This document shows, in pieces, positions 420 through 56,563 of a DNA stretch of 56,694 nucleotides (position 1 is its first letter; each line of letters begins with the position of its first letter). The DNA lies in IMG/VR virus record IMGVR_UViG_2786546887_000004. One strand, written 5' to 3'. The notes under the pieces were generated by a model. The model worked only from the letters and a program-made list of their open reading frames with translations, was not told the DNA's origin and searched no databases. Source of the DNA: an uncultured virus (IMG/VR IMGVR_UViG_2786546887_000004). Taxonomy: Duplodnaviria > Heunggongvirae > Uroviricota > Caudoviricetes. The position numbers and the translations under genes were made by a program.

Positions 420-1504
420 TACTTTGTGCCTATGAATATAGGTTCGTATTTTCTACCTGGCACATCAGGTCTTGCATTTTCAAAACGACCTATATAGTTG
501 TTCTTTTGTTTTACTATTGTCTCACCTTCTTCTAGTGTATTTTTAGCAGATGTACCTTGTTGTGTAGATAAAGATAACCACCATATTTTCATGTCTTTGA
601 AACCTGCCTCAACCATGCAATCGTAAGTATCTTCTTCAAATGTTTTATATGATTTTACATTAGCAACATTAAAGGCAGCNCATTTACCAGGTTTTAAACC
701 ATGATATGCGTTCTTAATTGTTTGTAATAAGAAACCATTACGCCATTGTTCTTGTACTGGAAACTTCTTAAATGATTGTTCTTCTTCATCACCATACATT
801 TCATGTCCTAAATAAGGTGGACTTGTAAATACAAAATCTAAACTATTTTCTTCAGGTATAAATGTTTCTGATCCTTGTCTTAATAAAGTATATTTTCTAT
901 CTTTATGACCATATTCATCTCTAATCATTTCTAAACCTGAATACGTAGGAACACATGGATCTGTACCTATATAATTAACACCAGCTGCAATCGCACCTAG
1001 TAAACGACCCCCATAACCCATACTAGGATCCCATACCGTACCTGGTTGTTCATTAAATAATGTAGAACCTTTTTCTACAAATATATCATATAAAGTTGCG
1101 GCTGCTGTAGGTCTAAAATTAGAGACCATTTGAGTACCTGAATATCGTCTCAACATTGATCTCATGTCTGATGGTGTAATTTCGTGTGCGTCTTTTTGTT
1201 GAAAGAAAGTGCCTGTAAGTATCTTGTTAATACCTTTTTCTAAATGTTCTTCATCTTCCCATATCTCCATAGGTGTCTTCATCTTACCACACTTTATTCC
1301 CCAAGCGTGTTTCATATAAGACCATGCAAGAGATAATCCGTGTGTTGATTGACCTATAATATTATGAGTTCTATCCCAAAGATTTTCTCTTTTAAATTCT
1401 GATAATGACGAATATTCTTTATCACGCCATTTTTTATCTTCAGAATAATAAGGAAATCCTTTGTTATCTTTCCAATCTCTAATTACTTCTTTTGCGTTTG
1501 ACAT
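419..1504 (-). CDS. SAM-dependent DNA amino-methyltransferase (m4C/m6A type)
   Basis: Motif I DPSMGYGGRLLG followed by catalytic motif IV FTSPPY. Confidence 0.8.
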   Translation of the reverse strand: MSNAKEVIRDWKDNKGFPYYSEDKKWRDKEYSSLSEFKRENLWDRTHNIIGQSTHGLSLAWSYMKHAWGIKCGKMKTPMEIWEDEEHLEKGINKILTGTFFQQKDAHEITPSDMRSMLRRYSGTQMVSNFRPTAAATLYDIFVEKGSTLFNEQPGTVWDPSMGYGGRLLGAIAAGVNYIGTDPCVPTYSGLEMIRDEYGHKDRKYTLLRQGSETFIPEENSLDFVFTSPPYLGHEMYGDEEEQSFKKFPVQEQWRNGFLLQTIKNAYHGLKPGKXAAFNVANVKSYKTFEEDTYDCMVEAGFKDMKIWWLSLSTQQGTSAKNTLEEGETIVKQKNNYIGRFENARPDVPGRKYEPIFIGTK

Positions 1505-1913
1505 AAACTAAACCAGGGAGTGTGCCTTTTGCCCAACTTGTTTTCCCCACTTTCTTCATTCCTATGCTATCATAAAATCCACACGCTGTCAAGTTGTCTG
1601 ATCTTACTGATAAATAAACATCTCTAGGACACCATTCGAAGAAAGCTCTCATTATAGATCGAGCATTACCATCACCTGGATACTCACTTGCTATTTGATG
1701 TAATACGGTGTCGCCTTTTCTTAAATTAACATCACCTATTTTCTGTTGTCTTTTACAATGATGAAAAGTTATAATTACGCAATCCTCATAAATGATTTGT
1801 TGTTTATCAATCATTCTTTTCATGTAATCTGTTCTTACATGAGGAAACCATTTCTTATGTTTATAGAAAATTTCTTTTATTTTTTGAAAATCAGACTTTT
1901 GCGCTAATAACAT
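1479..1913 (-). CDS. GNAT-family acetyltransferase
   Basis: LHQIASEYPGDGNA (motif A) and LSVRSDNLTACGFYDSIGM (motif B). Confidence 0.8.
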   Translation of the reverse strand: MLLAQKSDFQKIKEIFYKHKKWFPHVRTDYMKRMIDKQQIIYEDCVIITFHHCKRQQKIGDVNLRKGDTVLHQIASEYPGDGNARSIMRAFFEWCPRDVYLSVRSDNLTACGFYDSIGMKKVGKTSWAKGTLPGLVYVKRKRSN

Positions 1914-6923: not shown

Positions 6924-7985
6924 TTATACCTCACTTGCTTCGACATATATAGATTTTAAATATTCTTTTAATTTTTGTTTACTTACATCTGTTTCTAATT
7001 GATCTACATAGTTATGTAGGAATGTAAGTGTATCTTCACCCATTTCTATTACATCATCTTTTACGGACGCCTTAATATCAGAGTAATCTTCTATAATATT
7101 TAAATCATAAACCGTTATATCATTATACAACTTTTCTACAAAATTGTCAAACATCTCTTCATTTGTCTTATTTAATACAACTAATTTTATGAAGTGTTTA
7201 TTATATTCTGTAATATCTAATGTATTATAATCCTTTTTAGAATCATCATAAATTATCTTTTTGTGTATTGTTCTAGGATTAATTATTCTTTCTAACTCTC
7301 TTGTTTCTGTATCGAAAATATGAAAACCTTTTGGGTCTTTATAGTCTGACCAGGTTTGTTCNTATTGAGCACCACAATAATAAATGTGACCATCATCTGT
7401 ATGTTTATGAAAATGACCTGATACAACCTTTTCAAATCTTTTAAACTCTGATTTTTCATGGCCGTATTGATTAATAACTCCGTTTTGCATTTCAATACCT
7501 TTTACTTCTAAATGACCAAACACTAAATCTGCTTTTGCTGTTCTTATCTTTTCATAAGACTCTTCTTTATTATCATCACATATCCAAGGTAAAAATAAAA
7601 TAGGCAGACCATCAAACTCTACAACTTTAGGTCTAGTGTAAATGTATGGTTCATTGATACCATCAAAACTTGTATATAAGTTTTCTACTGCGTTTACTTC
7701 ATTTGTATTTTTAAAATAAGTATCGTGGTTACCTATGATAATATGAGTATCTATTTTTTCTTTCCACAATACATCAAAAAACTCTCTTCTAAAGATCGCA
7801 GCTGTTTGGTGGTTGATAAACTTTCTTCTATCAACTACATCACCTAAATGTATTAGTGTTTTTATATTATGTTCTTTTAAGTAAGGAAAAAATTGATCTC
7901 TGTAAAAGTCAACCTGATAGTTTCTAAATGCTTCACTATCATTTCTTACACCAAAGTGAGTGTCGTTAAGTATTGCTATTTTCAT
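6924..7985 (-). CDS. gp47: Recombination endonuclease subunit gp47 (SbcD/Mre11-like)
   Basis: DTHFG, GDVVDRRK, GNHD and SGHFH phosphoesterase motifs. Confidence 0.97.
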   Translation of the reverse strand: MKIAILNDTHFGVRNDSEAFRNYQVDFYRDQFFPYLKEHNIKTLIHLGDVVDRRKFINHQTAAIFRREFFDVLWKEKIDTHIIIGNHDTYFKNTNEVNAVENLYTSFDGINEPYIYTRPKVVEFDGLPILFLPWICDDNKEESYEKIRTAKADLVFGHLEVKGIEMQNGVINQYGHEKSEFKRFEKVVSGHFHKHTDDGHIYYCGAQXEQTWSDYKDPKGFHIFDTETRELERIINPRTIHKKIIYDDSKKDYNTLDITEYNKHFIKLVVLNKTNEEMFDNFVEKLYNDITVYDLNIIEDYSDIKASVKDDVIEMGEDTLTFLHNYVDQLETDVSKQKLKEYLKSIYVEASEV

Positions 7986-9468
7986 TTTGTAAATAATCTA
8001 TTTGTTGGTTTAGTGTTTCTTTNCCACTTCTTAATTTCATAAGGTATTGTTTGTGACCCATAATTGGACATTGTTTATTCATAGGATCAGTTTTAAATGT
8101 TTTAATGTGATGATCTACTTCTTTTTTAACAACATTTTTATTGTGTTCGACTAGCATATCGTATTCTCTTTTAAGTGAGTCTATATTTGCTAATTCTAAT
8201 TCTTTTAATAATACTGCAAAGTTTTGAGCATTAAATAATACATAGTCTGTTTTAAAATCTTCTTTTATAGGCATTCTATCTGACCATTTATCTAAATTGT
8301 GTTTTAATGAATCAGGTAAATTAACTTTAAGTTCTTTCCAAAATTTACTATCATTTCTTTTTACAATATAGTGTAATAAAACAAAGTCTCTAATGTTCTC
8401 TACAATATGTCCTACTTTTGTATTGTATTGATCTATATCTGTTTGTTTGTAATTAATTAAAGTGTGCATTAATAAAAAAGATTGTTGAATAGAAGTTCCT
8501 ATTGATGACGCCTCTAATGGTTCTATAAAACTAGCACATAGACCCATTGCAACACAATTACCTATCCATGGTCTATCTAACGCACCTGCGTCAAACTTAA
8601 TATTCTTTGCAACATTAACTTTAAATCCTAAATAATCTTCACATTCTTTTTGTGCTTGTTCAGCATTTATATATCTGTTATCGAAAACATAACCATTACC
8701 CCAACGACCGTATGTCGGTATACGCCACATCCAACCTGAAGACATTGCCTTTGCAAGTGTATATGGCGTATATTCATCCGTGTCAGGAGTAGGAAAGGCT
8801 ATTGCCTCATTCATAGGCAGATAGTCTTTGTATGAAACCCACTTTGCACCTAATTTAGATATTAAGTATTTTTTAAATCCTGTACAATCAATATAAAAAT
8901 CTGATTCGTACCAACCCTTATCACCTCTAATTCTTTTGATACCATGATTGTCTGTTTCAACATCTGTAATATCATCTGTGTGTACTTCGATACCAAAGTC
9001 CTTACATTTTTTTAATAAGAAAGTGTTTAGTTTATGTGTGTTGAAATGAAATTGTGATGGTATATAATTAGGTAGTACTTCGTTATTAAAACAATGACCT
9101 GAGGTATATTCATCAGGTTTAAGTTTATTAATTGTTGCGTAAGCATAACCAGCATAGTATTGACCTAAAGCAACTTTATGTAGTTCATTTGTAATATTAT
9201 GAAAATATGGTTCTTTAGTCCAGTCTTCAAACATAATACCATATTTAAATGTTGCGTCTGTTTCTAATAAAAGTTCTTTTAAAGGAACACCTATAAATTC
9301 CATAAAGTCTTTCCAGTGTTCAGTAGAACCTTCACCTACGCCTATGATACCTATGTTGTCAGATTTAACAACCTCTATATTTAATTTTTCAAATCTAGCT
9401 TTAAGAACAAGAGCAGATACAAGACCTGCTGTTCCACCACCTAGTACCGTTATTTTATTGACCGACAT
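7966..9468 (-). CDS. Flavin-dependent (tryptophan-type, PrnA-like) halogenase
   Basis: GGGTAG, GVGEGS, ATFK (catalytic Lys), GWMWRIP, FIEPLEAS. Start reassigned to MSVNKIT at 9468. Confidence 0.92.
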   Translation of the reverse strand: MSVNKITVLGGGTAGLVSALVLKARFEKLNIEVVKSDNIGIIGVGEGSTEHWKDFMEFIGVPLKELLLETDATFKYGIMFEDWTKEPYFHNITNELHKVALGQYYAGYAYATINKLKPDEYTSGHCFNNEVLPNYIPSQFHFNTHKLNTFLLKKCKDFGIEVHTDDITDVETDNHGIKRIRGDKGWYESDFYIDCTGFKKYLISKLGAKWVSYKDYLPMNEAIAFPTPDTDEYTPYTLAKAMSSGWMWRIPTYGRWGNGYVFDNRYINAEQAQKECEDYLGFKVNVAKNIKFDAGALDRPWIGNCVAMGLCASFIEPLEASSIGTSIQQSFLLMHTLINYKQTDIDQYNTKVGHIVENIRDFVLLHYIVKRNDSKFWKELKVNLPDSLKHNLDKWSDRMPIKEDFKTDYVLFNAQNFAVLLKELELANIDSLKREYDMLVEHNKNVVKKEVDHHIKTFKTDPMNKQCPIMGHKQYLMKLRSXKETLNQQIDYLQNENSNT

Positions 9469-11032
9469 AATGTTTGTAGTAATCGTTTGTTTTAACACAA
9501 TTCTTTTGTGCGTAATTAAAAAACTCTAAAGCGTGTTTCGTTTGATGTTTTGAGCTTTCATATAAGTTATATTCTTTTAACTCTCTTTTAACCATATCTC
9601 TATCAAGTATATTCATACCTTGACTTATATTTAACCATAGATTATCATCTATGTGATAAAAATCGTTTCTGTTTCCTCTAGCAAAATCTACTAGTCTTGG
9701 AGTTCTAGTTTGCCACATCGCTAATTTTTCCATCAATTGTGGTGACCATCTTTTGTGTGATGAGGCTTCTTTCCAATATTCAGTATCATTTCTAGGAGTA
9801 ATATAGTGATAAACTATAAAATCTTTTATTGCATCCCACATATTAGTCATATCGTCATTATAAGAAGTTTGTAGTGCCTCATTATTAAAGTCTGTTGTTT
9901 CTGTAAAATAATATTGAATCCAATGTTTTAATTGAAATAAGGTAGCATGAATAGATGTTGCCTCTAATGGTTCTATAAATGCACTTGATAATCCTGTTGA
10001 TATAACATTTTTTATCCATAACTTTGTAAATCTACCAGAGTGAAATTTAATATCTTTTTGTACTTCTATTTTTGTCTTTAATACTTTTTCTATTTCTAAC
10101 TTTGCTTCATCAGCAGTGGTAAATGAATCATTAAAACAATACCCAGCACCATATCTTTCTTGTAAAGGTATCATCCATAACCAACCATATTTTTGCGCCC
10201 ATGCGTGTGTATAGTTTCTAATAATAGTTTTATCTGTATAAGGTAAATGAAACGCAAGTGCTCTATTATTTAATAATTGATCGTCATATCTCTTAAAGTA
10301 GTTGTTGTATGACTTTAGTAATATTCTTTTAAAGCCTGAACAATCAACAAATAAATCTCCTGATATAGGTTTATCATGTCCTCTTTTTTTACACCATACA
10401 GACTTAATTGTTTCATCTTCGTTTTTCTCATACCCTAAAACTTCATCATCAATATATTCTATATTGTGTTTACTTAACACAAATTTTTTTAAAAATTTTC
10501 CTGTCTTGTAAGTATCTAAATGAAGNGCTGTGTTGTTTTTTCTTAAATCTTTATAACCACCATAACCCATTAATTTTTTATAAGGATTATTAGCTGGGTG
10601 GTCTGCTCTTACAAATGGTAGTTTATTATGTTTCATACAGAAACCTTGTAAACTAGAATTTTTTAAATTCTCAGCAACAGCGTACATCTTCATTGCGTCA
10701 TAGTCATCACTTGGATATGAGTTAGGTGTATTTAAAAACTCACCTATAGGTGAATTAAAATGTTCACCTTTTTTATACCAATCTCTATGTTGAATACCTA
10801 TCTTATGTGTTGCACCTGTTTCTTTCATAAACACACCTTCAGGTATGCCTACTTGTTTTAGAAAGTGATTAAATAAACCAGTAGTACTTTCACCCACACC
10901 AATAATAGGTATCTCTTCCGAGGCAATAACCGTGATCTTAATATAAGGTGGTGTTGTATCTCTTAAATAACAAGCCGCTGTCCAACCTGCTGTACCACCA
11001 CCAACTATTACTATGTTTTTAATTTTTTTCAT
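9455..11032 (-). CDS. Flavin-dependent (tryptophan-type, PrnA-like) halogenase
   Basis: GGGTAGW, GVGEST, ATHK, GWLWMIP, FIEPLEAT. Confidence 0.92.
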   Translation of the reverse strand: MKKIKNIVIVGGGTAGWTAACYLRDTTPPYIKITVIASEEIPIIGVGESTTGLFNHFLKQVGIPEGVFMKETGATHKIGIQHRDWYKKGEHFNSPIGEFLNTPNSYPSDDYDAMKMYAVAENLKNSSLQGFCMKHNKLPFVRADHPANNPYKKLMGYGGYKDLRKNNTXLHLDTYKTGKFLKKFVLSKHNIEYIDDEVLGYEKNEDETIKSVWCKKRGHDKPISGDLFVDCSGFKRILLKSYNNYFKRYDDQLLNNRALAFHLPYTDKTIIRNYTHAWAQKYGWLWMIPLQERYGAGYCFNDSFTTADEAKLEIEKVLKTKIEVQKDIKFHSGRFTKLWIKNVISTGLSSAFIEPLEATSIHATLFQLKHWIQYYFTETTDFNNEALQTSYNDDMTNMWDAIKDFIVYHYITPRNDTEYWKEASSHKRWSPQLMEKLAMWQTRTPRLVDFARGNRNDFYHIDDNLWLNISQGMNILDRDMVKRELKEYNLYESSKHQTKHALEFFNYAQKNCVKTNDYYKHYVGQ

Positions 11033-11582
11033 CTATGACAATTTCTAAAGGCGTTTTCTTTGTTCTTTTTCTTTTTCTAACTTTAATCTCTTTCTTTTTA
11101 GGAAGTTCATCTGTCTTAGGACTATTCTTTCTTAAAAATTCTATAAACTGATTCTTATAATCTTTGTTTGTGTCATTAGGGTCAATATGTAAATCTGCTA
11201 AATTAGCGTCTTCAATAAGTTTTGCTTTTATATTTACTTGTTTCTTTTCTTTTTGTATTCTTCTAATAAAAGCATAATATATTATCTGCGTAAAATATGC
11301 AAATGGGTTTTTAGATTTCTTTGGATTAAAATTACTTAAATATTGTAAGCAGTTCTCTATACCATCACTAATCATATCATCTCTAAATGTGTAATTAATA
11401 AAGTTAGGTCTATACGACAAGTGATTTGCGATTTTTAAAAAACACTCACCAATGTAATTAGTCACAGGTGGTTTTTTTCTTCCTCTTTTTTCTGCCTTGT
11501 CGCAACGCTCTTTAAATTCTGTCATTGCTTGTAGAAACACTTTGTTATCTACATAGTGTTCACTTCTTTTTCTTTTAGTCAT
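11019..11582 (-). CDS. gp55: Late-transcription sigma factor gp55
   Basis: HYVDNK, YIGECFLKIANHLSYRPNFINY, DGIENCLQY, NPFAYFTQI. Start at MTKRKRS (11582). Confidence 0.97.
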   Translation of the reverse strand: MTKRKRSEHYVDNKVFLQAMTEFKERCDKAEKRGRKKPPVTNYIGECFLKIANHLSYRPNFINYTFRDDMISDGIENCLQYLSNFNPKKSKNPFAYFTQIIYYAFIRRIQKEKKQVNIKAKLIEDANLADLHIDPNDTNKDYKNQFIEFLRKNSPKTDELPKKKEIKVRKRKRTKKTPLEIVIDEKN

Positions 11583-11588
11583 ATTATT

Positions 11589-11617
11589 ATTATACAACAA
11601 TGGTTGTATTATGTCAA
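11589..11617 (-). promoter_or_regulatory. Consensus sigma70 promoter of gp55 (leaderless geometry)
   Basis: TTGACA-N17-TATAAT, then 6 nt, then ATG. Confidence 0.85.
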
Positions 11618-29200: not shown

Positions 29201-30658
29201 TTATAGTTTTTTTAAATAGTCAGACATGGTATCTGCATACTTAGCGTTATAATCAATAAGTTTTTTATAATTATCTACTGACGGTTCAATATTTTCAAAA
29301 CCTTTTATATTAATTGGCACATCTGCAACACCTAGACCTTGAGCAACTTGAACATAACTTGACATTCTAAATTGTGCCGTTAACATTGTATCAACACAAT
29401 CATAGTGTCTAATATTGTTTTGTTTTAATTTGTGTAATTTTTTTTCAAAATGTTTAGGTGGTTTATGTTTTGTAGGAAAGTCAATCCAAAATTGACTATC
29501 TTTTCTTTTAGTAATATAATGTAGATATACAAAACTTAATGTCTCTTTCATATTATTACCACATATTAAGTTGTACATATCTCTATCATCTTCATTACTT
29601 TCAAACCANGTATTATGAAAATGATTAAACATCATCAATTGTTCTATTGTCAAAAATAGAGATGTTGACTCTAAAGGTTCAATAAAAGTAGATGATAATC
29701 CTACAGCAACACAATTATTTACCCATACTTTTTCAAATCTACCTGCGTCAAAATCAATTACCTTTTTAACATTTATTTTTTCACCATAATACTCTTCACA
29801 CTCTTTAAGTGCTTGTTCTTCGTTTATATAATCTGAGTCAAAGATATATCCTCTACCTACTCTATGTTGTAAAGGTATTTCAAATATCCAACCATACTTC
29901 ATAGCAATCGCTTTTGTGTAAGGAAATAAATCTTCTTTTTCTTTTGGTATTATGATTGCCTTTTTCATAGGCAAATGATCTCTATAAGATATCCATTTTT
30001 GTTTATAATGTTCACCTATAATTTTTCTTGCCATACCTGAACAATCAAATACAAAATCTACATCTACACTTTGATCATTGTTTAAAGTAATTTTTGTAAT
30101 ATCATTTTTATCATTAGTAGATAGACTTTCAAACTCTGCGTCTATATGGTTTATACCTCTTTCAATTGCTGTCTTCTTCAAAAATGCAGCTAACATACCT
30201 GCGTCAAAATGTAATGCGTATGAAGTATGTTTAGTATCTACTTTATTTTGATAAGATATTAATGGTGAATATTGATAATCTTCTAAATTTTTATTTTCAT
30301 GTATTAAATGTTTTAAGTAAAATTCAAAGCAGTCATTTGAAAACATTGGGTGTACTTTAAACGGAGTTAAGTGTTCAAAGAAAGCATGAAAATATTTTTT
30401 ACCATCACCATTCCAGTTCTCAAAACTGATACCATTTTTGATAGTACCATTTGTATTTTTAATTACATCTTCTATTGGTATGTTAAGATAAGTAAAAAAG
30501 TTAATAACATTTGGGGTTGTCGCCTCGCCTACACCTATTGTACCTATTTTTGTGCTTTCTATAATAGATACATTGTCGTTAGGTCTGACTTTTTGAATAA
30601 AAAGGGCAGTGAACCAACCTGCTGTACCACCACCTAAAATAACAAAGTTTTTTTTCAT
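29201..30658 (-). CDS. Flavin-dependent (tryptophan-type) halogenase
   Basis: GGGTAGW, GVGEAT, GTIK, GWIFEIP, FIEPLEST. Confidence 0.9.
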   Translation of the reverse strand: MKKNFVILGGGTAGWFTALFIQKVRPNDNVSIIESTKIGTIGVGEATTPNVINFFTYLNIPIEDVIKNTNGTIKNGISFENWNGDGKKYFHAFFEHLTPFKVHPMFSNDCFEFYLKHLIHENKNLEDYQYSPLISYQNKVDTKHTSYALHFDAGMLAAFLKKTAIERGINHIDAEFESLSTNDKNDITKITLNNDQSVDVDFVFDCSGMARKIIGEHYKQKWISYRDHLPMKKAIIIPKEKEDLFPYTKAIAMKYGWIFEIPLQHRVGRGYIFDSDYINEEQALKECEEYYGEKINVKKVIDFDAGRFEKVWVNNCVAVGLSSTFIEPLESTSLFLTIEQLMMFNHFHNXWFESNEDDRDMYNLICGNNMKETLSFVYLHYITKRKDSQFWIDFPTKHKPPKHFEKKLHKLKQNNIRHYDCVDTMLTAQFRMSSYVQVAQGLGVADVPINIKGFENIEPSVDNYKKLIDYNAKYADTMSDYLKKL

Positions 30659-43700: not shown

Positions 43701-46700
43701 TAATTTTGACATCTCTTGTATCTAAAGTATAACTAGGTATTGTAAATGTTGCCAATAACATATGACCATCTAAATCTGATGGCTCTAATGGATTAAGAGC
43801 AGACGCACCTTCAACTGCTTTTAATAAACCATTTCTAGTCATAAAAATTTTGTCTATTCTATTTAAATAAAATTCAAAGTCAGCAGTAATATCTGAACCA
43901 AATTTTATAACATCAACCGTAGAGTTACCAGAACCATCAAAACTTCTATCGTTGCCNCCAGAATTAATTGTACTTGCGTCATCTACTCGTGGTCTGAAAT
44001 CTAAACAATCTCTTAATTCAAATTTATCACCAGTGGTATCTGAAGTATAACTTGGTATGTTTTCGTAATCTACTTGACCTGAATATGAGTCAACATCAAA
44101 ATAATCACCAGTACCATGTGCAAAGAAATCAAAATTTACAAGTAATCTACCTGTTGGTACAATTGCACCTGGTTTTAATTTTAATCTACCTATATCGTAG
44201 AAGTTATCTCTTTGACCAGTGTCTAAATCAAATCTATCTGAAATATCTGTATCACTAGCAGTAGCGTTTGTACTAAAATCAGCAGACATATAAACATTGT
44301 TTATATCAAATACGTCAGCCTTACCAAGACCAATAGTACCTGATTCTATTTCTGTCTGACTTGTTTTTTGAATAGTTGAACCGTTTGTTAAAGTTTTTGT
44401 TTTAGAACCATCTGTCTTACTTAATGTTGCAAGTATCTTAACTTTGTGACCATTAAAGTTTGCACCAAAGTCTAGTTTTAGTGAAGCACCTGTAGGTGAA
44501 CCTGTTAATTCAAATATTGCGTCACCCTCATGGTTATTACCAGTTAAGTTTAATACATCACCAACAGCACCAGTTCCACCAGAACCAGTCGTCATAATTG
44601 TAACCGTAAAGTCATCACTTGAAAGTGAAGAGAATGTTTCATCAGTTCCTGCGTTAATAGTACCATCACCATTAGATGATAATGTTGAAACAAATTGTCT
44701 TCTTATAGAATAATTTGTATCAGTAGCATTACTATTAGCTGCTGTCTTTAATGTTTTAATTGTTTTATAAGGTAGTTTTTTAATTGCAGTATTTTGCTCA
44801 GGATTTTGTATCTTNGATCTTCTTCTTGTTATAATAGTAGAAGTTGATACATCAGCAGCCCCAACATTAGCAGTTAAAGTTGCCTGTGTTTGAGATACAA
44901 TATTTTTAACTAAAGCAGTAACCGTACTACCTGCGTCATTAATAAATGAAATTGAATCACCTATTTTTAAATCTCTTGTAAAGTTTGTTCCTTTACCAAT
45001 TAAGTTATTTGTAGCATTTGCAATTGAAGCAACACCTACTAAATCTACATTAGCACCATGAGTAGAGGTTAAATCTGTATCTGAAGTATAAGTTGGCGAA
45101 CCAGCCATACCTATTTGTTTTACTGCTGACACTTCTCTTGTTGTTGCAGCTTTTAATCCTAATACATCTGATTGTAAAGTACCACTTACATTTGAAGTTT
45201 GACCAGAAATGGTTTCACCTGCAGTAAATGTTCCTTTAACACTTGACAACACAATAGTTGTGTGTGTAAATGTTGGTGAAGATGAAAAGGCAGTGACTAC
45301 TTGAGGAGTTAATCCATCTGAAGAATATAACTCAAAAGTATTTGTTGTAGAATTTCTAATTGTAAAAATGCCAGGTGTATATGCTGTTGAAGCAATTGAC
45401 ATTGTACCACCCGATACATTAACTTGTTGACCATCTTTTAATCCATGTGCAGATTTTGTAAATACACCAGCACCATCAGGAGCAGGAGTTGTTGAACAAG
45501 ACGCACCAGCAAATGAAAGAGTTGCAGTAATACTTTCTACAATACCTGTAGCACCTGAACTTGCACCAGAAAGAACTTCACCAGTTGTAAATGAACCAGT
45601 TGTAGTTAATTCTAAATGTGTAAACATTTCTATATCAAATAGATAATGTCTGTAAATTGAAGTCGTTGCGTTAATGTCTAAAGATTCTGTTGCAGATACG
45701 GTTTCAAAACCACGAGATTTTGCTCTACCAATTTGAGGTATAGTTGTACCGACCGTTGATTGTTGAGTTCCTCTTACAGCAGTTGCAGTATCAAATAAGT
45801 TAACCGTTTTATATGCCTCTACTGGACCACTACCAACAAATCCTATATCTGGTGAACCAAATACATTATTTACATTAATAAAATTTTGAACATCAAATCT
45901 TTGTTTGTGATTATTTTGTGTATCAAACTCTCTTGCTTTATTTAATGCAACAAAGGTTGTTCCTATTGTTTCATTTTCATATCCTCTAACATATGCTTTA
46001 AAAGGTGAAACACCAATTGCAAGTTTTGTAGCAGAACCGCCGTTTCCTCCAGTAAATATACCTCTGTTAGTTCCTGATAATAAATGTTCTCTTACTTCAA
46101 AATCAGGATTAGTTAAAGAATAATCTCCTGACTCGTCAAATGTTCTTCTAGCAAATGTATCTTCTAGTACAGCATATTCTGTATGTCTAACTTTTGATTT
46201 AATTTCACCATTTTCTACTCTAGCAATTTCATAAAAGTTATCGTCTTCAGTAGAAGCTAAAGTTTTTTTAGCAAGTGTTAATAATATTTTAAATCTATGA
46301 GCACCAGGTGCGTTTAAGTTTGAAGAACCTTGAGCGTTGTCTGATAAACTTGCGTCATCATTAGAGGTTACAAAAGATTCAGTAACCGTAAAACCAATTC
46401 TGTATGAAGGTGAGTTTGTATATTTGTCTAATATTAAAACTGAAGCATCAGCCTGTACAAAGAAACCATTAATATAATATACACCTGATTCAACAGCAGC
46501 TGCTGAACCTGTTGCAGTTGTATTTACTACAGCAGTTGGTGAACCACCACCACTTGATGTAATTGTTTCTCCATCAGTAAATACGGTTGCAGTATTATTA
46601 GTTCCTGTCTTATTATATTTTACAAATAATGTATCAGGATCAGTTCCGTCATCAGCAGATACGCCAATAACTTCAGCAATAACTCCTGAAGAACCACCTG

Positions 46701-55718: not shown

Positions 55719-55844
55719 ATGTTGAAAAATATATGGGAAATAACTAAGGCACTTGTTGGGACTGCTTTCGCAATAGGTTTCTTTTATGCGTTGTACATAA
55801 TTATGTGGGCAATGTCACCTGAAAACGGTTTAGGGTTGTATTAG
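55719..55844 (+). CDS. Single-TM microprotein (41 aa)
   Basis: MLKNIWEITKALVGTAFAIGFFYALYIIMWAMSPENGLGLY*; RBS AAGGAG. Not in the ORF track. Confidence 0.75.
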   Translation: MLKNIWEITKALVGTAFAIGFFYALYIIMWAMSPENGLGLY

Positions 55845-55858
55845 TACAACTCAACATT

Positions 55859-55885
55859 AAAGGGCGCTTTTGGCGCCCTTTTTTT
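55859..55885. terminator. Rho-independent terminator between convergent genes
   Basis: AAAGGGCGC-TTTTG-GCGCCCTTTTTTT. Confidence 0.9.
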
Positions 55886-55892
55886 AAGCTTA

Positions 55893-56093
55893 TTATTGAA
55901 ACTTTGTATTACTATGTTTTACTGATATATGTCCTAAAACTCTACCTTTATTAGGTCCTTCTTTAATTGTAAAACCAGATGTTCCGTTGTCGTTAATGCC
56001 AACTTCTTTTCTAGCTCTTAAAAGAACATTCTCTTTTTTTTTATTAAGAGAATTATTTGCAAAGTTTTTTAGGAGTTCGGTAAATCTTCCCAT
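55893..56093 (-). CDS. Small basic protein downstream of the glutamine riboswitch
   Basis: 66 aa with strong SD AAAGGAGG; monocistronic between a late promoter and a terminator. Confidence 0.8.
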   Translation of the reverse strand: MGRFTELLKNFANNSLNKKKENVLLRARKEVGINDNGTSGFTIKEGPNKGRVLGHISVKHSNTKFQ

Positions 56094-56123
56094 AACACCC
56101 TCCTTTGTATATTTAAAGTTAGG

Positions 56124-56172
56124 TGCGTTCCTTCAGCGATTGCTTACTTCCGACTCATATGAGTTGAACGAT
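56124..56172 (-). ncRNA. Glutamine-I (glnA motif) riboswitch
   Basis: AUCGUUC-A-ACUCAUAUGAGU-CGGAAGUA-AGCAAUCGCU-GAAG-GAACG-CA. It shows P1 CGUUC/GAACG, a P2 hairpin, the CGGAAGUA linker, a P3 hairpin and the E-loop GAA. Confidence 0.9.
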
Positions 56173-56178
56173 ATTAAG

Positions 56179-56186
56179 TATTTATA
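56179..56186 (-). promoter_or_regulatory. T4 late promoter of the riboswitch transcript
   Basis: TATAAATA, 6 nt upstream of the aptamer 5' AUCG. Confidence 0.85.
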
Positions 56187-56393
56187 TTACATTTTAGATA
56201 ACCATTTTTGATAACTATAATCTTCACCAAATTTCTTAATATATTCTGCTGATAATTTTCCGTACCTTAATCTATTATATAATTTAAAAGGTAGTGTCCA
56301 AAAAAAGTGATAAAGTATACCGTAAAGTATAACTATGTAAATTACAACTAGACAAATATTTTCAAATGTCCAATCTATTTTTCTTTTATCCAT
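56187..56393 (-). CDS. Small membrane protein
   Basis: One hydrophobic helix, ICLVVIYIVILYGILYHFFW. Confidence 0.6.
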   Translation of the reverse strand: MDKRKIDWTFENICLVVIYIVILYGILYHFFWTLPFKLYNRLRYGKLSAEYIKKFGEDYSYQKWLSKM

Positions 56394-56563
56394 TTTATTA
56401 CAATCCTTTGTACATCAATAACTATAATTAATAATAATATAATACAATATTCCTCTAATAAATTTGAACCAAAAANNTNTAAAGATTTTTCTTTTCCTAA
56501 ACTAGCAGCTATAATNACTATGGTTATATATGGTAAAAATAACCAAGCAAATAACCTATTCAT
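56375..56563 (-). CDS. Small membrane protein
   Basis: Two hydrophobic helices; overlaps both neighbours. Confidence 0.55.
   Translation of the reverse strand: MNRLFAWLFLPYITIXIIAASLGKEKSLXXFGSNLLEEYCIILLLIIVIDVQRIVIKWIKEK

What the first reader, a model, noticed from the sequence alone, without database searches (positions are those of the whole stretch)
55859..56186. Phage late-promoter-driven glutamine riboswitch gating a 66-aa basic protein
Seen on the minus strand, in order: TATAAATA (56179-56186); 6 nt later a complete glnA-type aptamer (P1 CGUUC/GAACG, P2 ACUCA/UGAGU, CGGAAGUA, P3 AGC/GCU, GAAG); SD AAAGGAGG; a 66-aa ORF; a terminator. This is a self-contained monocistronic unit. The aptamer 3' end GCACCU..CUUU can pair with AAAG..GGGUGU across the SD, and this overlaps the last P1 base and the C that makes the long-range pair. 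Established: glutamine-I riboswitches report nitrogen status and act as an ON switch for the glutamine synthetase inactivating factor gifB (IF17) in cyanobacteria. Inference: the phage senses host glutamine during late infection and translates this protein only when nitrogen is replete. The protein could be a GS or N-metabolism regulator, or a lysis-timing factor. The gp55-type promoter suggests the unit is integrated into the phage programme rather than a passive host remnant. The RNA motif is already known from marine metagenomes; the effector's function is unknown to me.
Basis: partly seen in the sequence, partly recalled or inferred. Interest (0 to 1): 0.9.

Follow-up and report, generated by a model that had tools for sequence, protein, structure and literature searches.

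The report
Phage glutamine riboswitch gating small protein
A marine phage related to those that infect SAR11 bacteria carries a genuine glutamine-sensing RNA switch, placed behind a late-infection promoter, that controls a tiny protein also found in most SAR11 genomes, where a different and apparently undescribed RNA leader usually precedes it.

Summary
Window 56172-56122 (-) is a full-length glutamine-I riboswitch (RF01739, 65.3 bits, cut-off 35). A TATAAATA lies 6 nt upstream. A hairpin (-11.2 kcal/mol) sequesters the SD, followed by a 66-aa ORF and a strong hairpin.

The window is a T4-like phage contig closest to Pelagibacter phage Mosig (capsid 79%) and encodes a gp55 homologue. All 15 TATAAATA sites lie on the coding strand.

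In IMG/VR, 21 of 122 riboswitch instances precede homologues of this ORF. The SD-sequestering helix covaries. This fits the translational ON model proposed for cyanobacterial gifB.

Glutamine riboswitches in such phages are published (Buchholz 2022), and this scan has noted similar units on other DNA. That paper assigned the Melnitz copy to tmRNA; here it precedes an unannotated 32-aa ORF.

New here:
- The ORF is not DUF4278/IF17.
- Its family matches 316 of 401 Pelagibacteraceae genomes.
- Only 2 of 151 Pelagibacteraceae genomes carry the riboswitch, both in front of this gene.
- Most host copies examined carry a covarying double-pseudoknot leader with no Rfam match. It may be the orphan "RS05825" candidate.

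The protein's function is unknown.

The parts
56179..56186 (-). T4-late-type promoter box TATAAATA. It starts directly after the stop codon of the upstream 68-aa ORF and ends 6 nt before the aptamer model's first base.
   Evidence: 15 of 15 such boxes on the minus strand; placement before late genes. NTAAATA ends 5-13 nt before the aptamer in 62 of 106 unique IMG/VR instances, against 2 of 119 in a control window. Function as a promoter is inferred.
56122..56172 (-). Glutamine-I riboswitch aptamer (glnA RNA, RF01739), complete
   Evidence: 65.3 bits, gathering 35, E 2.9e-12, model 1-53/53. P2 and P3 covary across 19 related loci.
56095..56126 (-). SD-sequestering hairpin (expression platform). 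GCACCU (56126-56121) pairs with GGGUGU (56100-95), and CUUU (56118-15) pairs with AAAG (56106-03).
   Evidence: -11.2 kcal/mol, z -3.64; 64 of 87 unique tails have at least 5 contiguous pairs anchored right after P1; 93% of cells paired, with 3 pairs changed on both sides.
56099..56106 (-). Shine-Dalgarno AAAGGAGG, 5 nt before the AUG
   Evidence: it lies inside the hairpin.
55893..56093 (-). 66-aa basic ORF ('family a'). AF2 predicts an N-terminal helix (3-27) followed by a Gly-rich NGTSGF..K.G.NKG..LGH segment.
   Evidence: ORF; phrog_32989, E 1.3e-10, unknown function; 20-sequence alignment with 7 invariant residues; AF2 pLDDT 73.5; matches in 316 of 401 Pelagibacteraceae genomes.
55855..55885 (.). 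GC-rich hairpin between convergent genes; a likely bidirectional terminator, canonical only for the plus strand
   Evidence: -16.7 and -15.9 kcal/mol. (scan found 0; on the minus strand only UUU follows).
11019..11600 (-). gp55-type late sigma factor, the trans-acting factor for TATAAATA promoters
   Evidence: phrog_234 'late sigma transcription factor', E 3e-62. The gp45-like clamp is elsewhere on the same contig (phrog_223).

Best explanation
The unit is a late-transcribed, glutamine-gated translational switch in a Mosig-like T4-type marine myophage. SHOWN: the aptamer is a complete glutamine-I riboswitch. The nucleotides directly after P1 (GCACCU) form a stable hairpin with the SD region. 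That hairpin recurs, with compensatory changes, behind this aptamer in many viral contigs. A TATAAATA box sits where a T4-type late transcript would begin at the aptamer's 5' edge (the spacing rule is recalled). The phage encodes gp55 and a gp45-like clamp. The gated ORF is conserved, and its family is present in most Pelagibacteraceae genomes searched. INFERRED: during late infection gp55-RNA polymerase makes a short mRNA that starts at the aptamer. Without glutamine the SD is locked in the hairpin. Glutamine binding recruits the C after P1 and its neighbours into the aptamer's tertiary fold, melts the hairpin and allows translation (ON switch, as proposed for Synechocystis gifB). The product is a phage copy of a host small basic protein, so the phage boosts a host regulatory or accessory function only when host nitrogen is plentiful. 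What the protein binds is unknown.
For: Aptamer: (65.3 bits; every upper-case consensus base matches).

Platform:
- Searches give the fold.
- In one search, 64 of 87 unique tails have at least 5 anchored pairs. Arm types are CACCU/GGGUG 25, CACUU/AAGUG 9, CACUU/GAGUG 7, CAUCU/GGGUG 6 and CAUCU/AGAUG 5. Mean helix length is 4.57 against 3.58 with swapped arms (maximum of 1000 swaps, 3.91).
- In one search, 95.2% of cells pair against 83.8% in shuffles (0 of 500 as high) and at most 47% when the partner is slid.

Promoter:
- Searches give strand and placement in the window.
- In one search, the window and all 20 viral family-a loci with enough upstream sequence have NTAAATA 6-12 nt before CGTTCA.
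- One search finds gp55 and the clamp.

Phage identity: (capsid 79% to Mosig, 72% Melnitz, 70% HTVC008M, 65% best cyanophage).

Co-occurrence:
- 21 of 122 IMG/VR riboswitch instances have a family-a ORF starting 27-37 nt after P1.
- 3 of 12 genome-contig loci holding family a have the riboswitch.
- 2 of 151 Pelagibacteraceae genomes carry RF01739, both directly before a 70-aa family-a gene. In G033 the cassette is on the same contig as glnA.

Host family: (316 of 401 genomes; one of the 401 is flagged unpublished, G376).

ON model in print: Klahn 2018, PMC6212724, passages read.
Against: There is no ligand-binding, reporter or 5'-end data.
- Metatranscriptome contigs laid on the locus matched mainly the conserved aptamer core of related loci, and contigs cannot show a transcript start.
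- In the full-length fold the aptamer helices and the sequestering hairpin coexist. Only the last P1 base and the following C are shared, so the switch depends on tertiary contacts that no tool here can model.
- The TATAAATA count is not enriched overall.
- 44 of 106 unique viral instances lack an NTAAATA box.
- Read-through from the upstream genes is not excluded.
- The minus-strand terminator lacks a proper U tract.
- Homologues in six pelagiphage loci have no riboswitch (0 of 6), so the protein does not need this control.
- The host of this phage is not established. The MAG in which the contig was binned has no riboswitch elsewhere, and none was found in the 15 genomes of its genus that were searched.
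Confidence: 0.75

Rival explanations
1. The 66-aa protein is a functional analogue of the cyanobacterial GS-inactivating factors (IF7/IF17). It would bind and inhibit host glutamine synthetase, or another nitrogen-assimilation enzyme, when glutamine is high. It could be the missing post-translational nitrogen control of SAR11, which lacks PII, GlnD and NtrBC.
For: The only glutamine-riboswitch output with a known function is the GS inhibitor IF17 (PMC6212724). SAR11 lacks GlnB, GlnD, GlnK and NtrBC (PMC3870248, abstract seen in the listing). The riboswitch-bearing SAR11 genome G033 has a type I glnA on the same contig. The protein is small and basic with a long N-terminal helix.
Against: None of 32 family members matches DUF4278 or any Pfam or NCBIfam model above its cut-off. 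No PDB sequence match at E up to 10. No fold match (best Foldseek E 4; best VIA Z 3.0). Buchholz et al. state that OM43 and Melnitz lack glnA although Melnitz has the riboswitch, but Melnitz gates a different small protein.
Confidence: 0.2
2. The protein is an RNA- or ribosome-binding housekeeping factor of SAR11. On this reading the conserved host leader is its own autoregulatory binding site, like ribosomal-protein leaders, not a metabolite sensor. The phage copy, put under a glutamine switch, tunes translation or RNA metabolism late in infection.
For: The family is near-universal and usually single-copy in Pelagibacteraceae (316 of 401). It is basic and small. Among the 12 loci returned (L163-L174), five have an rlmN-like rRNA methyltransferase gene alongside. 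The structured leader lies immediately upstream of the gene.
Against: No similarity to any ribosomal or RNA-binding family. In two SAR11 genomes and many phages a metabolite riboswitch replaces the leader, which fits interchangeable metabolite sensors better than a protein-binding site.
Confidence: 0.2
3. The protein is a lysis-timing factor, released when glutamine accumulates after virion protein synthesis ends. This is the idea Buchholz et al. raised for Melnitz.
For: In two podophage loci (Lederberg, HTVC100P) the homologue lies five genes downstream of an M15 peptidase gene. Small membrane-protein ORFs lie directly upstream in the window. The speculation is in PMC9004378.
Against: The protein has no predicted membrane segment (sequence; AF2 model). 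A lysis role does not explain a single conserved copy in most SAR11 chromosomes.
Confidence: 0.07
4. The switch is OFF-type or inactive. Either glutamine stabilises the sequestered state, or the aptamer is a decaying remnant, or it controls another RNA such as a tmRNA.
For: The aptamer and the hairpin coexist in the MFE fold. Buchholz et al. read the Melnitz aptamer as part of ssrA.
Against: All consensus bases are intact. There is no tmRNA or tRNA in the window. In Melnitz the aptamer is followed by a conserved platform and a 32-aa ORF of the commonest effector family. gifB reporters are ON-type (PMC6212724).
Confidence: 0.07

Closest known systems
Type 1 glutamine riboswitch of the Synechocystis gifB (IF17) leader (Klahn et al. 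2018, PMC6212724; Rfam RF01739)
   Same: Same aptamer class, full length. Same proposed platform: the C after P1 and its neighbours pair with the RBS and are freed by glutamine. A small protein is the output.
   Different: The promoter is a phage late-type box, not NtcA-controlled. The output is not DUF4278/IF17 (0 of 32). The organism is a SAR11-type myophage, not a cyanobacterium.
Glutamine riboswitches reported in Melnitz-like and pelagimyophages (Buchholz et al. 2022, PMC9004378): Melnitz, Mosig, 10 PMP-MAVGs, 5 GOV2 contigs
   Same: Same phage group (capsid 79% to Mosig, 72% to Melnitz) and same aptamer. The Mosig copy is in the syntenic place.
   Different: That paper reads the aptamer as the 3' domain of ssrA and as a regulator of tmRNA or lysis. 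Here each aptamer is followed by an SD-sequestering helix and a small ORF. In Mosig it is the annotated 51-aa Mosig_00116. In Melnitz it is an unannotated 32-aa ORF. In the window it is a 66-aa ORF of a third, unrelated family (hhalign probability 2% and 0.1%).
RS05825 RNA, an orphan 'strong riboswitch candidate' of SAR11 (Stav et al. 2019, PMC6429828; main-text passages and supplementary table row seen)
   Same: Confined to SAR11. Always upstream of a gene of unknown function, close to the RBS. This resembles the leader found here before the host homologues of the window's ORF.
   Different: It is described as three hairpins with an internal loop, not a double pseudoknot. No sequence or alignment is in the held supplements, so I could not test whether it is the same RNA. 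No Rfam 15 family matches the leader.
T4 late promoters (TATAAATA read by gp55 with gp33 and the gp45 clamp)
   Same: Identical octamer, strand-specific placement before structural genes, and gp55 and clamp homologues encoded.
   Different: No gp33 homologue was identified here, and no 5' ends were mapped. The rule that the start lies about 6 nt after the box is recalled, not taken from a call.

Membership tests
Glutamine-I riboswitch (glnA RNA, RF01739) | Covariance-model score above the curated gathering threshold over the whole model | tested here: met
   65.3 bits against 35, model 1-53/53, E 2.9e-12. One search gives the same hit in the whole assembly.
Glutamine-I riboswitch (glnA RNA, RF01739) | Three-stem junction P1/P2/P3 supported by covariation, with conserved CGGAAGUA and GAAGG joining strands | tested here: met
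   on 19 loci: P1 100% paired (invariant). P2 has 4 of 4 pairs and P3 3 of 3 pairs with changes on both sides. The joining strands are invariant.
Glutamine-I riboswitch (glnA RNA, RF01739) | Selective binding of L-glutamine | not testable with these tools
   Needs in-line probing or ITC.
gifB-type translational ON platform | Nucleotides directly 3' of P1 pair with the ribosome binding site | tested here: met
   for structure and covariation. The regulatory direction was not tested.
GS-inactivating factor IF17 / DUF4278 | Match to Pfam DUF4278 (YRG-repeat N-terminal domain) | tested here: not met
   no Pfam family at E up to 1; 0 of 32 family members. YRG-type ORFs do occur behind other viral copies of the aptamer.
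GS-inactivating factor IF17 / DUF4278 | Binds and inactivates glutamine synthetase | not testable with these tools
T4-type late transcription unit | TATAAATA box at the -10 position and a phage-encoded gp55 sigma | tested here: met
T4-type late transcription unit | Transcript 5' end a few nt downstream of the box, late in infection | tested here: inconclusive
   only contigs of RNA libraries were available. They cannot show starts and mostly belong to related loci.
Intrinsic terminator | GC-rich hairpin followed by a U tract on the transcribed strand | tested here: inconclusive
   The hairpin is strong. On the minus strand only three U follow it, and the scan called nothing.
PHROG 32989 (unknown function) | Profile match | tested here: met
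   E 1.3e-10, residues 4-52 on profile positions 3-52 of 54.
RS05825 RNA (Stav 2019), for the SAR11 host leader only | Sequence and structure match to the published motif | not testable with these tools
   No sequence of the motif is held. Rfam 15 has no matching family.

The most novel reading that the evidence does not exclude
One near-universal SAR11 small protein is the output of two interchangeable RNA sensors. Pelagimyophage-type contigs and rare SAR11 lineages use the glutamine-I riboswitch. Most SAR11 use a double-pseudoknot leader that no Rfam family describes and that may be the orphan RS05825 candidate. If the sensors are functionally equivalent, the orphan leader is a new glutamine (or nitrogen-status) riboswitch class in the ocean's most abundant bacterium. 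Its output would then be the long-sought PII-independent nitrogen regulator of SAR11, which myophages re-deploy from a late promoter.
Probability: 0.2. Interest if true: 0.9.

Novelty: new variant of a known kind. Interest (0 to 1): 0.62.

Why it matters
The aptamer class and its presence in this phage group are known. What changes is the reading of what it controls.
- In the window and in the two isolate phages examined (Mosig, Melnitz), the switch gates a small ORF through a conserved, covarying SD-sequestering helix. This differs from the published assignment to tmRNA.
- The window's ORF belongs to a family found in about four fifths of the SAR11 genomes searched. Two of those genomes also put it behind a glutamine riboswitch.
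- Most of the host copies examined put it behind a structured leader of unknown ligand.

This link gives a concrete, cheap experiment for an orphan SAR11 RNA: test glutamine. It also points to a candidate nitrogen-responsive small protein in an organism that lacks the canonical PII/Ntr system. Finally, it shows phages pairing a host metabolite sensor with their own late-promoter timing.

Tried and rejected
- Structure and function of the protein: no PDB sequence match at E up to 10. Foldseek against PDB gave a best E of 4. VIA-align wide gave a best Z of 3.0. The ESM Atlas best score was 0.83, with unnamed clusters. Pfam and NCBIfam gave nothing above cut-off.
- A GS-protein complex prediction could not be run, so GS binding remains untested.
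- Expression: four RNA runs held only small shares of the stretch. Laid contigs mostly matched the aptamer core (56108-56187) of related loci. One 108-nt piece matched the ORF (55890-55997) exactly in a single run. This shows no transcript start and is not proof of transcription. One search failed on N in the stretch and was repeated with a shorter range.
- The terminator scan found none, so I folded the hairpin directly.
- Homology among effector families a, b and c was rejected (hhalign probability 2% and 0.1%).
- The idea that the MAG holding the contig is cyanobacterial was rejected: there is no PSII hit at 82% completeness. No 16S gene was found.
- Riboswitch in pelagiphage loci holding homologues: 0 of 6.
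- Earlier notes of this scan: nothing near this place or by sequence.
- Literature: no paper was found on a chromosomal glutamine riboswitch in SAR11 or following up RS05825 RNA. The motifs of Meyer 2009 (PMC2704228, passages read) do not fit the host leader's context.
Full report
**What is there**

Reading the minus strand of 56186-55855 gives, in order:
- TATAAATA (56186-56179), which starts directly after the stop codon of a 68-aa upstream ORF.
- Six nt (CTTAAT).
- A complete glutamine-I aptamer.
- A 32-nt tail that holds AAAGGAGG.
- AUG at 56093.
- A 66-aa ORF ending at 55893.
- A GC-rich hairpin.

cmscan against Rfam 15 gives one hit in the 56.7-kb window: RF01739 at 56172-56122 (-), 65.3 bits against a gathering score of 35, E 2.9e-12, covering model positions 1-53 of 53. 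It is also the only RF01739 hit in the whole 1.86-Mb assembly that holds the window.

**What the window is**

The window is the last 56.7 kb of a 118.7-kb contig (C28) of a 63-contig MAG.
- PHROG scans show a T4-like myovirus. They find major head, portal, sheath, tube, baseplate and terminase genes, SbcCD, UvsY, three tryptophan-halogenase-like genes and many 2OG-Fe(II) oxygenases.
- The rest of the contig holds gp43 polymerase, clamp loader, a gp45-like clamp, RegA, UvsX, helicase, primase and NrdAB.
- The capsid protein is 79% identical to Pelagibacter phage Mosig, 72% to the OM43 phage Melnitz, 70% to HTVC008M and 65% to the best cyanophage.
- At DNA level only 55331-55729 matches a listed phage (Mosig, 77%).
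- The MAG has no PSII hit at 82% completeness. None of the 15 genomes of its genus that were searched has the riboswitch.

The contig is therefore best read as a phage contig binned with, or infecting, a heterotroph. The host is not established.

**Late promoter**

TATAAATA occurs 15 times, against 12.1 expected, so the count alone is not significant. All 15 lie on the coding strand. Eleven lie 5-47 nt upstream of an ORF start, including the scaffold, prohead protease, sheath, terminase small-subunit and baseplate genes. The phage encodes a gp55-type late sigma (window 11019-11600, phrog_234, E 3e-62).

Among unique riboswitch instances from IMG/VR, 62 of 106 have NTAAATA (ATAAATA 34, CTAAATA 28) ending 5-13 nt before the aptamer's CGTTCA. 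In a control window 100 nt further upstream the figure is 2 of 119.

That a T4 late transcript starts about 6 nt after the box is recalled knowledge. If it holds here, the mRNA begins at the aptamer's first modelled base.

**Expression platform**

The tail folds as GCACCU..CUUU / AAAG..GGGUGU (-11.2 kcal/mol, z -3.64, 0 of 200 shuffles as good). The hairpin buries the SD and uses the last P1 base and the following C.

- Of 87 unique tails with a downstream ORF, 64 have at least 5 contiguous pairs anchored at the first base after P1. The 3' arm mostly ends 1-2 nt before the start codon.
- The arm pairs covary: CACCU/GGGUG 25, CACUU/AAGUG 9, CACUU/GAGUG 7, CAUCU/GGGUG 6, CAUCU/AGAUG 5.
- Swapping arms between instances lowers the mean helix length from 4.57 to 3.58 (maximum of 1000 swaps, 3.91).
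- The remaining 23 tails use other arrangements.

I then took 19 loci chosen only because their downstream protein is homologous to the window's ORF. On these the named structure has 95.2% of cells paired, against 83.8% in shuffles (0 of 500 as high) and at most 47% when slid. The sequestering helix is 93% paired, with three pairs changed on both sides.

This is the architecture that Klahn et al. postulated for gifB (C68 and its neighbours pairing with the RBS and melted by glutamine; passages read). They showed in vivo that gifB is ON-type. The ON direction here is an inference.

In the full-length MFE fold the aptamer and the hairpin coexist. The competition is therefore confined to the junction and to tertiary contacts.

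**End of the unit**

The hairpin at 55878-55862 is strong (-16.7 kcal/mol, z -4.07). On the minus strand only UUU follows it, and the terminator scan called nothing. On the plus strand a run of seven T directly follows the core stem (the predicted fold draws three of them into a longer stem). It lies between convergent genes and probably serves both. The ORF is the last minus-strand gene before two plus-strand ORFs, so a short, effectively monocistronic message is plausible. Read-through from upstream is not excluded.

**The gated protein**

It has no Pfam match. It matches phrog_32989, of unknown function (E 1.3e-10).
- Weak tblastn hits (E 3e-3 to 0.9) occur in 17 records, 16 of them Pelagibacter phages: podo-, sipho- and myoviruses.
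- Six such loci have no riboswitch (0 of 6).
- In the IMG/VR sample, 21 of 122 riboswitch instances are followed by a homologue.
- The alignment of 20 sequences has seven invariant residues.
- A profile search finds 137 cluster representatives at E up to 1e-3. That library holds no names.
- AF2 gives a helix (3-27) plus two short strands at pLDDT 73.5, with no fold match.

Clustering of all downstream ORFs (112 of 123 instances had one) gives these groups:
- a 28-48-aa 'WC' family, 35;
- this family, 22 including the window;
- a 49-51-aa '..DPRLQGI' family, 11;
- YRG-type (DUF4278-like) groups, 9+4+1+1;
- several smaller groups.

Families a, b and c are unrelated by hhalign.

**Published phage cases re-read**

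Buchholz et al. 2022 (passages read) reported glutamine riboswitches in Melnitz, Mosig, a Prochlorococcus phage, 10 pelagimyophage MAVGs and 5 GOV2 contigs. They interpreted the Melnitz copy as the 3' domain of ssrA controlling tmRNA and perhaps lysis.
- In Mosig the aptamer (92197-92250, 50 bits) lies in the syntenic place. CATAAATA precedes it, and an anti-SD hairpin and the annotated 51-aa Mosig_00116 (family b) follow it.
- In Melnitz the aptamer (46398-46446, 52.8 bits) overlaps the annotated tmRNA end. A CACUU/GAGUG platform and an unannotated 32-aa ORF of family c follow it. The record annotates an opposite-strand ORF there instead.

In the window and in the two isolate phages examined (Mosig, Melnitz), the switch therefore gates a small ORF. 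This scan has also noted phage glutamine riboswitches before short unrelated genes on other DNA (e1-5361874). My pattern scan agrees with that note.

**Host connection**

A scan of one genome per species found 12 loci with family a. Three of them, in marine Pelagibacteraceae or Alphaproteobacteria MAGs, have the riboswitch.

Of 151 Pelagibacteraceae genomes, 2 have RF01739.
- In both, the aptamer, the CACCU/GGGUG platform and a 70-aa family-a gene lie between a dehydrogenase/PNPOx-like gene and other cellular genes.
- In G033 the cassette is on the same contig as glnA.
- No TAAATA box lies upstream, and the sigma-70 scan calls no promoter there.

The family-a profile matches 316 of 401 Pelagibacteraceae genomes, mostly once per genome and often on contigs of 100 kb to 1.16 Mb. 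Among the 12 loci returned (L163-L174), five have an rlmN-like gene next to the family-a gene. The phage protein is therefore a copy of a near-universal SAR11 small protein.

**A second leader**

Upstream of the host gene there is no Rfam hit (0 of 10 loci with a family at E up to 1 apart from two chance PhrS rows; no relevant hit at E up to 10 on one leader). There is, however, a conserved leader.

Of 50 host loci, 39 could be parsed for the ORF. Of these, 31 show the same plan:
- P1 (CCAU/AUGG).
- The last three loop bases (CAC, GUC or CUC) pair with GUG, GAC or GAG 6-7 nt after P1.
- A second hairpin follows.
- Its loop (CUAC, UCGC or UCGAC) pairs with GUAG, GCGA, GCGG or GUCGG 5 or about 20 nt downstream.
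- Then come an A-rich linker and the SD.

Of the other eight, two have a GCAU/AUGC variant of P1, one has an insertion, and five have a different hairpin-plus-loop-pairing leader.

I aligned 28 unique sequences with MAFFT. I left out duplicates, the insertion variant L201 and the five other-type leaders. On this alignment the named pseudoknotted structure has 96.2% of cells paired, against 84.9% in shuffles (0 of 500 as high) and at most 35% when slid. Two of three PK1 pairs and three of four PK2 pairs change on both sides.

Caveats:
- The sequences fall into a few clades, so events are fewer than cells.
- I derived the structure from these sequences.
- MAFFT mis-registers three sequences in P2.

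The leader may be the 'RS05825 RNA' of Stav et al. 2019. That motif is a SAR11-only 'strong riboswitch candidate' before a gene of unknown function. I could not compare sequences. No follow-up was found.

**Mechanism and verdict**

Most likely (0.75): gp55-dependent late transcription yields a short mRNA that begins at the aptamer, and glutamine binding frees the SD so that a phage copy of a core SAR11 small protein is made only when the host is nitrogen-replete.

The protein's target is unknown. The readings I weigh are a nitrogen-assimilation inhibitor (0.2), an RNA/ribosome-binding factor with an autoregulatory leader (0.2) and a lysis factor (0.07).

The RNA class and its presence in these phages are known. 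The corrected target, the host-wide effector family and the link to an orphan SAR11 leader are the new parts.

Noticed in passing
Loci L165-L214 (Pelagibacteraceae genomes), about 75-110 nt upstream of the family-a gene; e.g. L167:1684-1759(-), L173:1684-1764(-): A conserved double-pseudoknot leader (P1 CCAU/AUGG; loop triplet pairing 6-7 nt downstream; a second hairpin whose loop pairs 5 or about 20 nt downstream) precedes the host homologue of the window's ORF. No Rfam 15 family matches it. It may be the orphan RS05825 riboswitch candidate of Stav 2019.
   Followed up: partly
L154 (Melnitz MZ577097.1) 799-968(+): The Melnitz glutamine aptamer overlaps the annotated 3' end of the tmRNA. A conserved anti-SD platform and an unannotated 32-aa ORF follow it. 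The record annotates an opposite-strand 33-aa ORF there instead.
   Followed up: yes
L158 (G174:C1) 1268-1614(-), and L155-L162: In 4 of 5 searched genomes of another genus of the MAG's own family, two tandem RF01739 aptamers precede a YRG-repeat (DUF4278-like) ORF of about 60 aa. The MAG itself has no PSII genes. This suggests an IF17-like cassette outside cyanobacteria. The family's name is not known to me.
   Followed up: partly
IMG/VR loci L008-L127: The same aptamer and platform gate at least six unrelated small-ORF families, and some loci have two aptamers in tandem (e.g. L070, L082). The upstream box comes in two forms, ATAAATA (34) and CTAAATA (28).
   Followed up: partly
window 56187-56563(-) and 55719-55844(+): Three small ORFs (68, 62 and 41 aa) with hydrophobic, membrane-like stretches flank the riboswitch unit. 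The 62-aa ORF spans N bases at about 56476-56516.
   Followed up: no
window 7966-11032(-), 29201-30658(-), and eight ORFs matching 2OG-Fe(II) oxygenase: The structural region is interleaved with three tryptophan-halogenase-like genes, many 2OG-Fe(II) oxygenase genes, a peptide deformylase and ferrochelatase-like genes.
   Followed up: no
G000 contig C28 against the rest of G000: A 118.7-kb T4-like phage contig is binned in a bacterial MAG. None of the 15 genomes of its genus that were searched has the riboswitch, and the MAG has only a weak GS-family match (66.8 bits). This points to mis-binning or an infecting phage.
   Followed up: partly
L132-L139 (freshwater and other MAG contigs): Family-a homologues also occur on short contigs binned to Chitinophagia, Actinomycetes, Verrucomicrobiota, Thermoplasmatota and others, without the riboswitch. 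These are probably phage contigs of other hosts.
   Followed up: no
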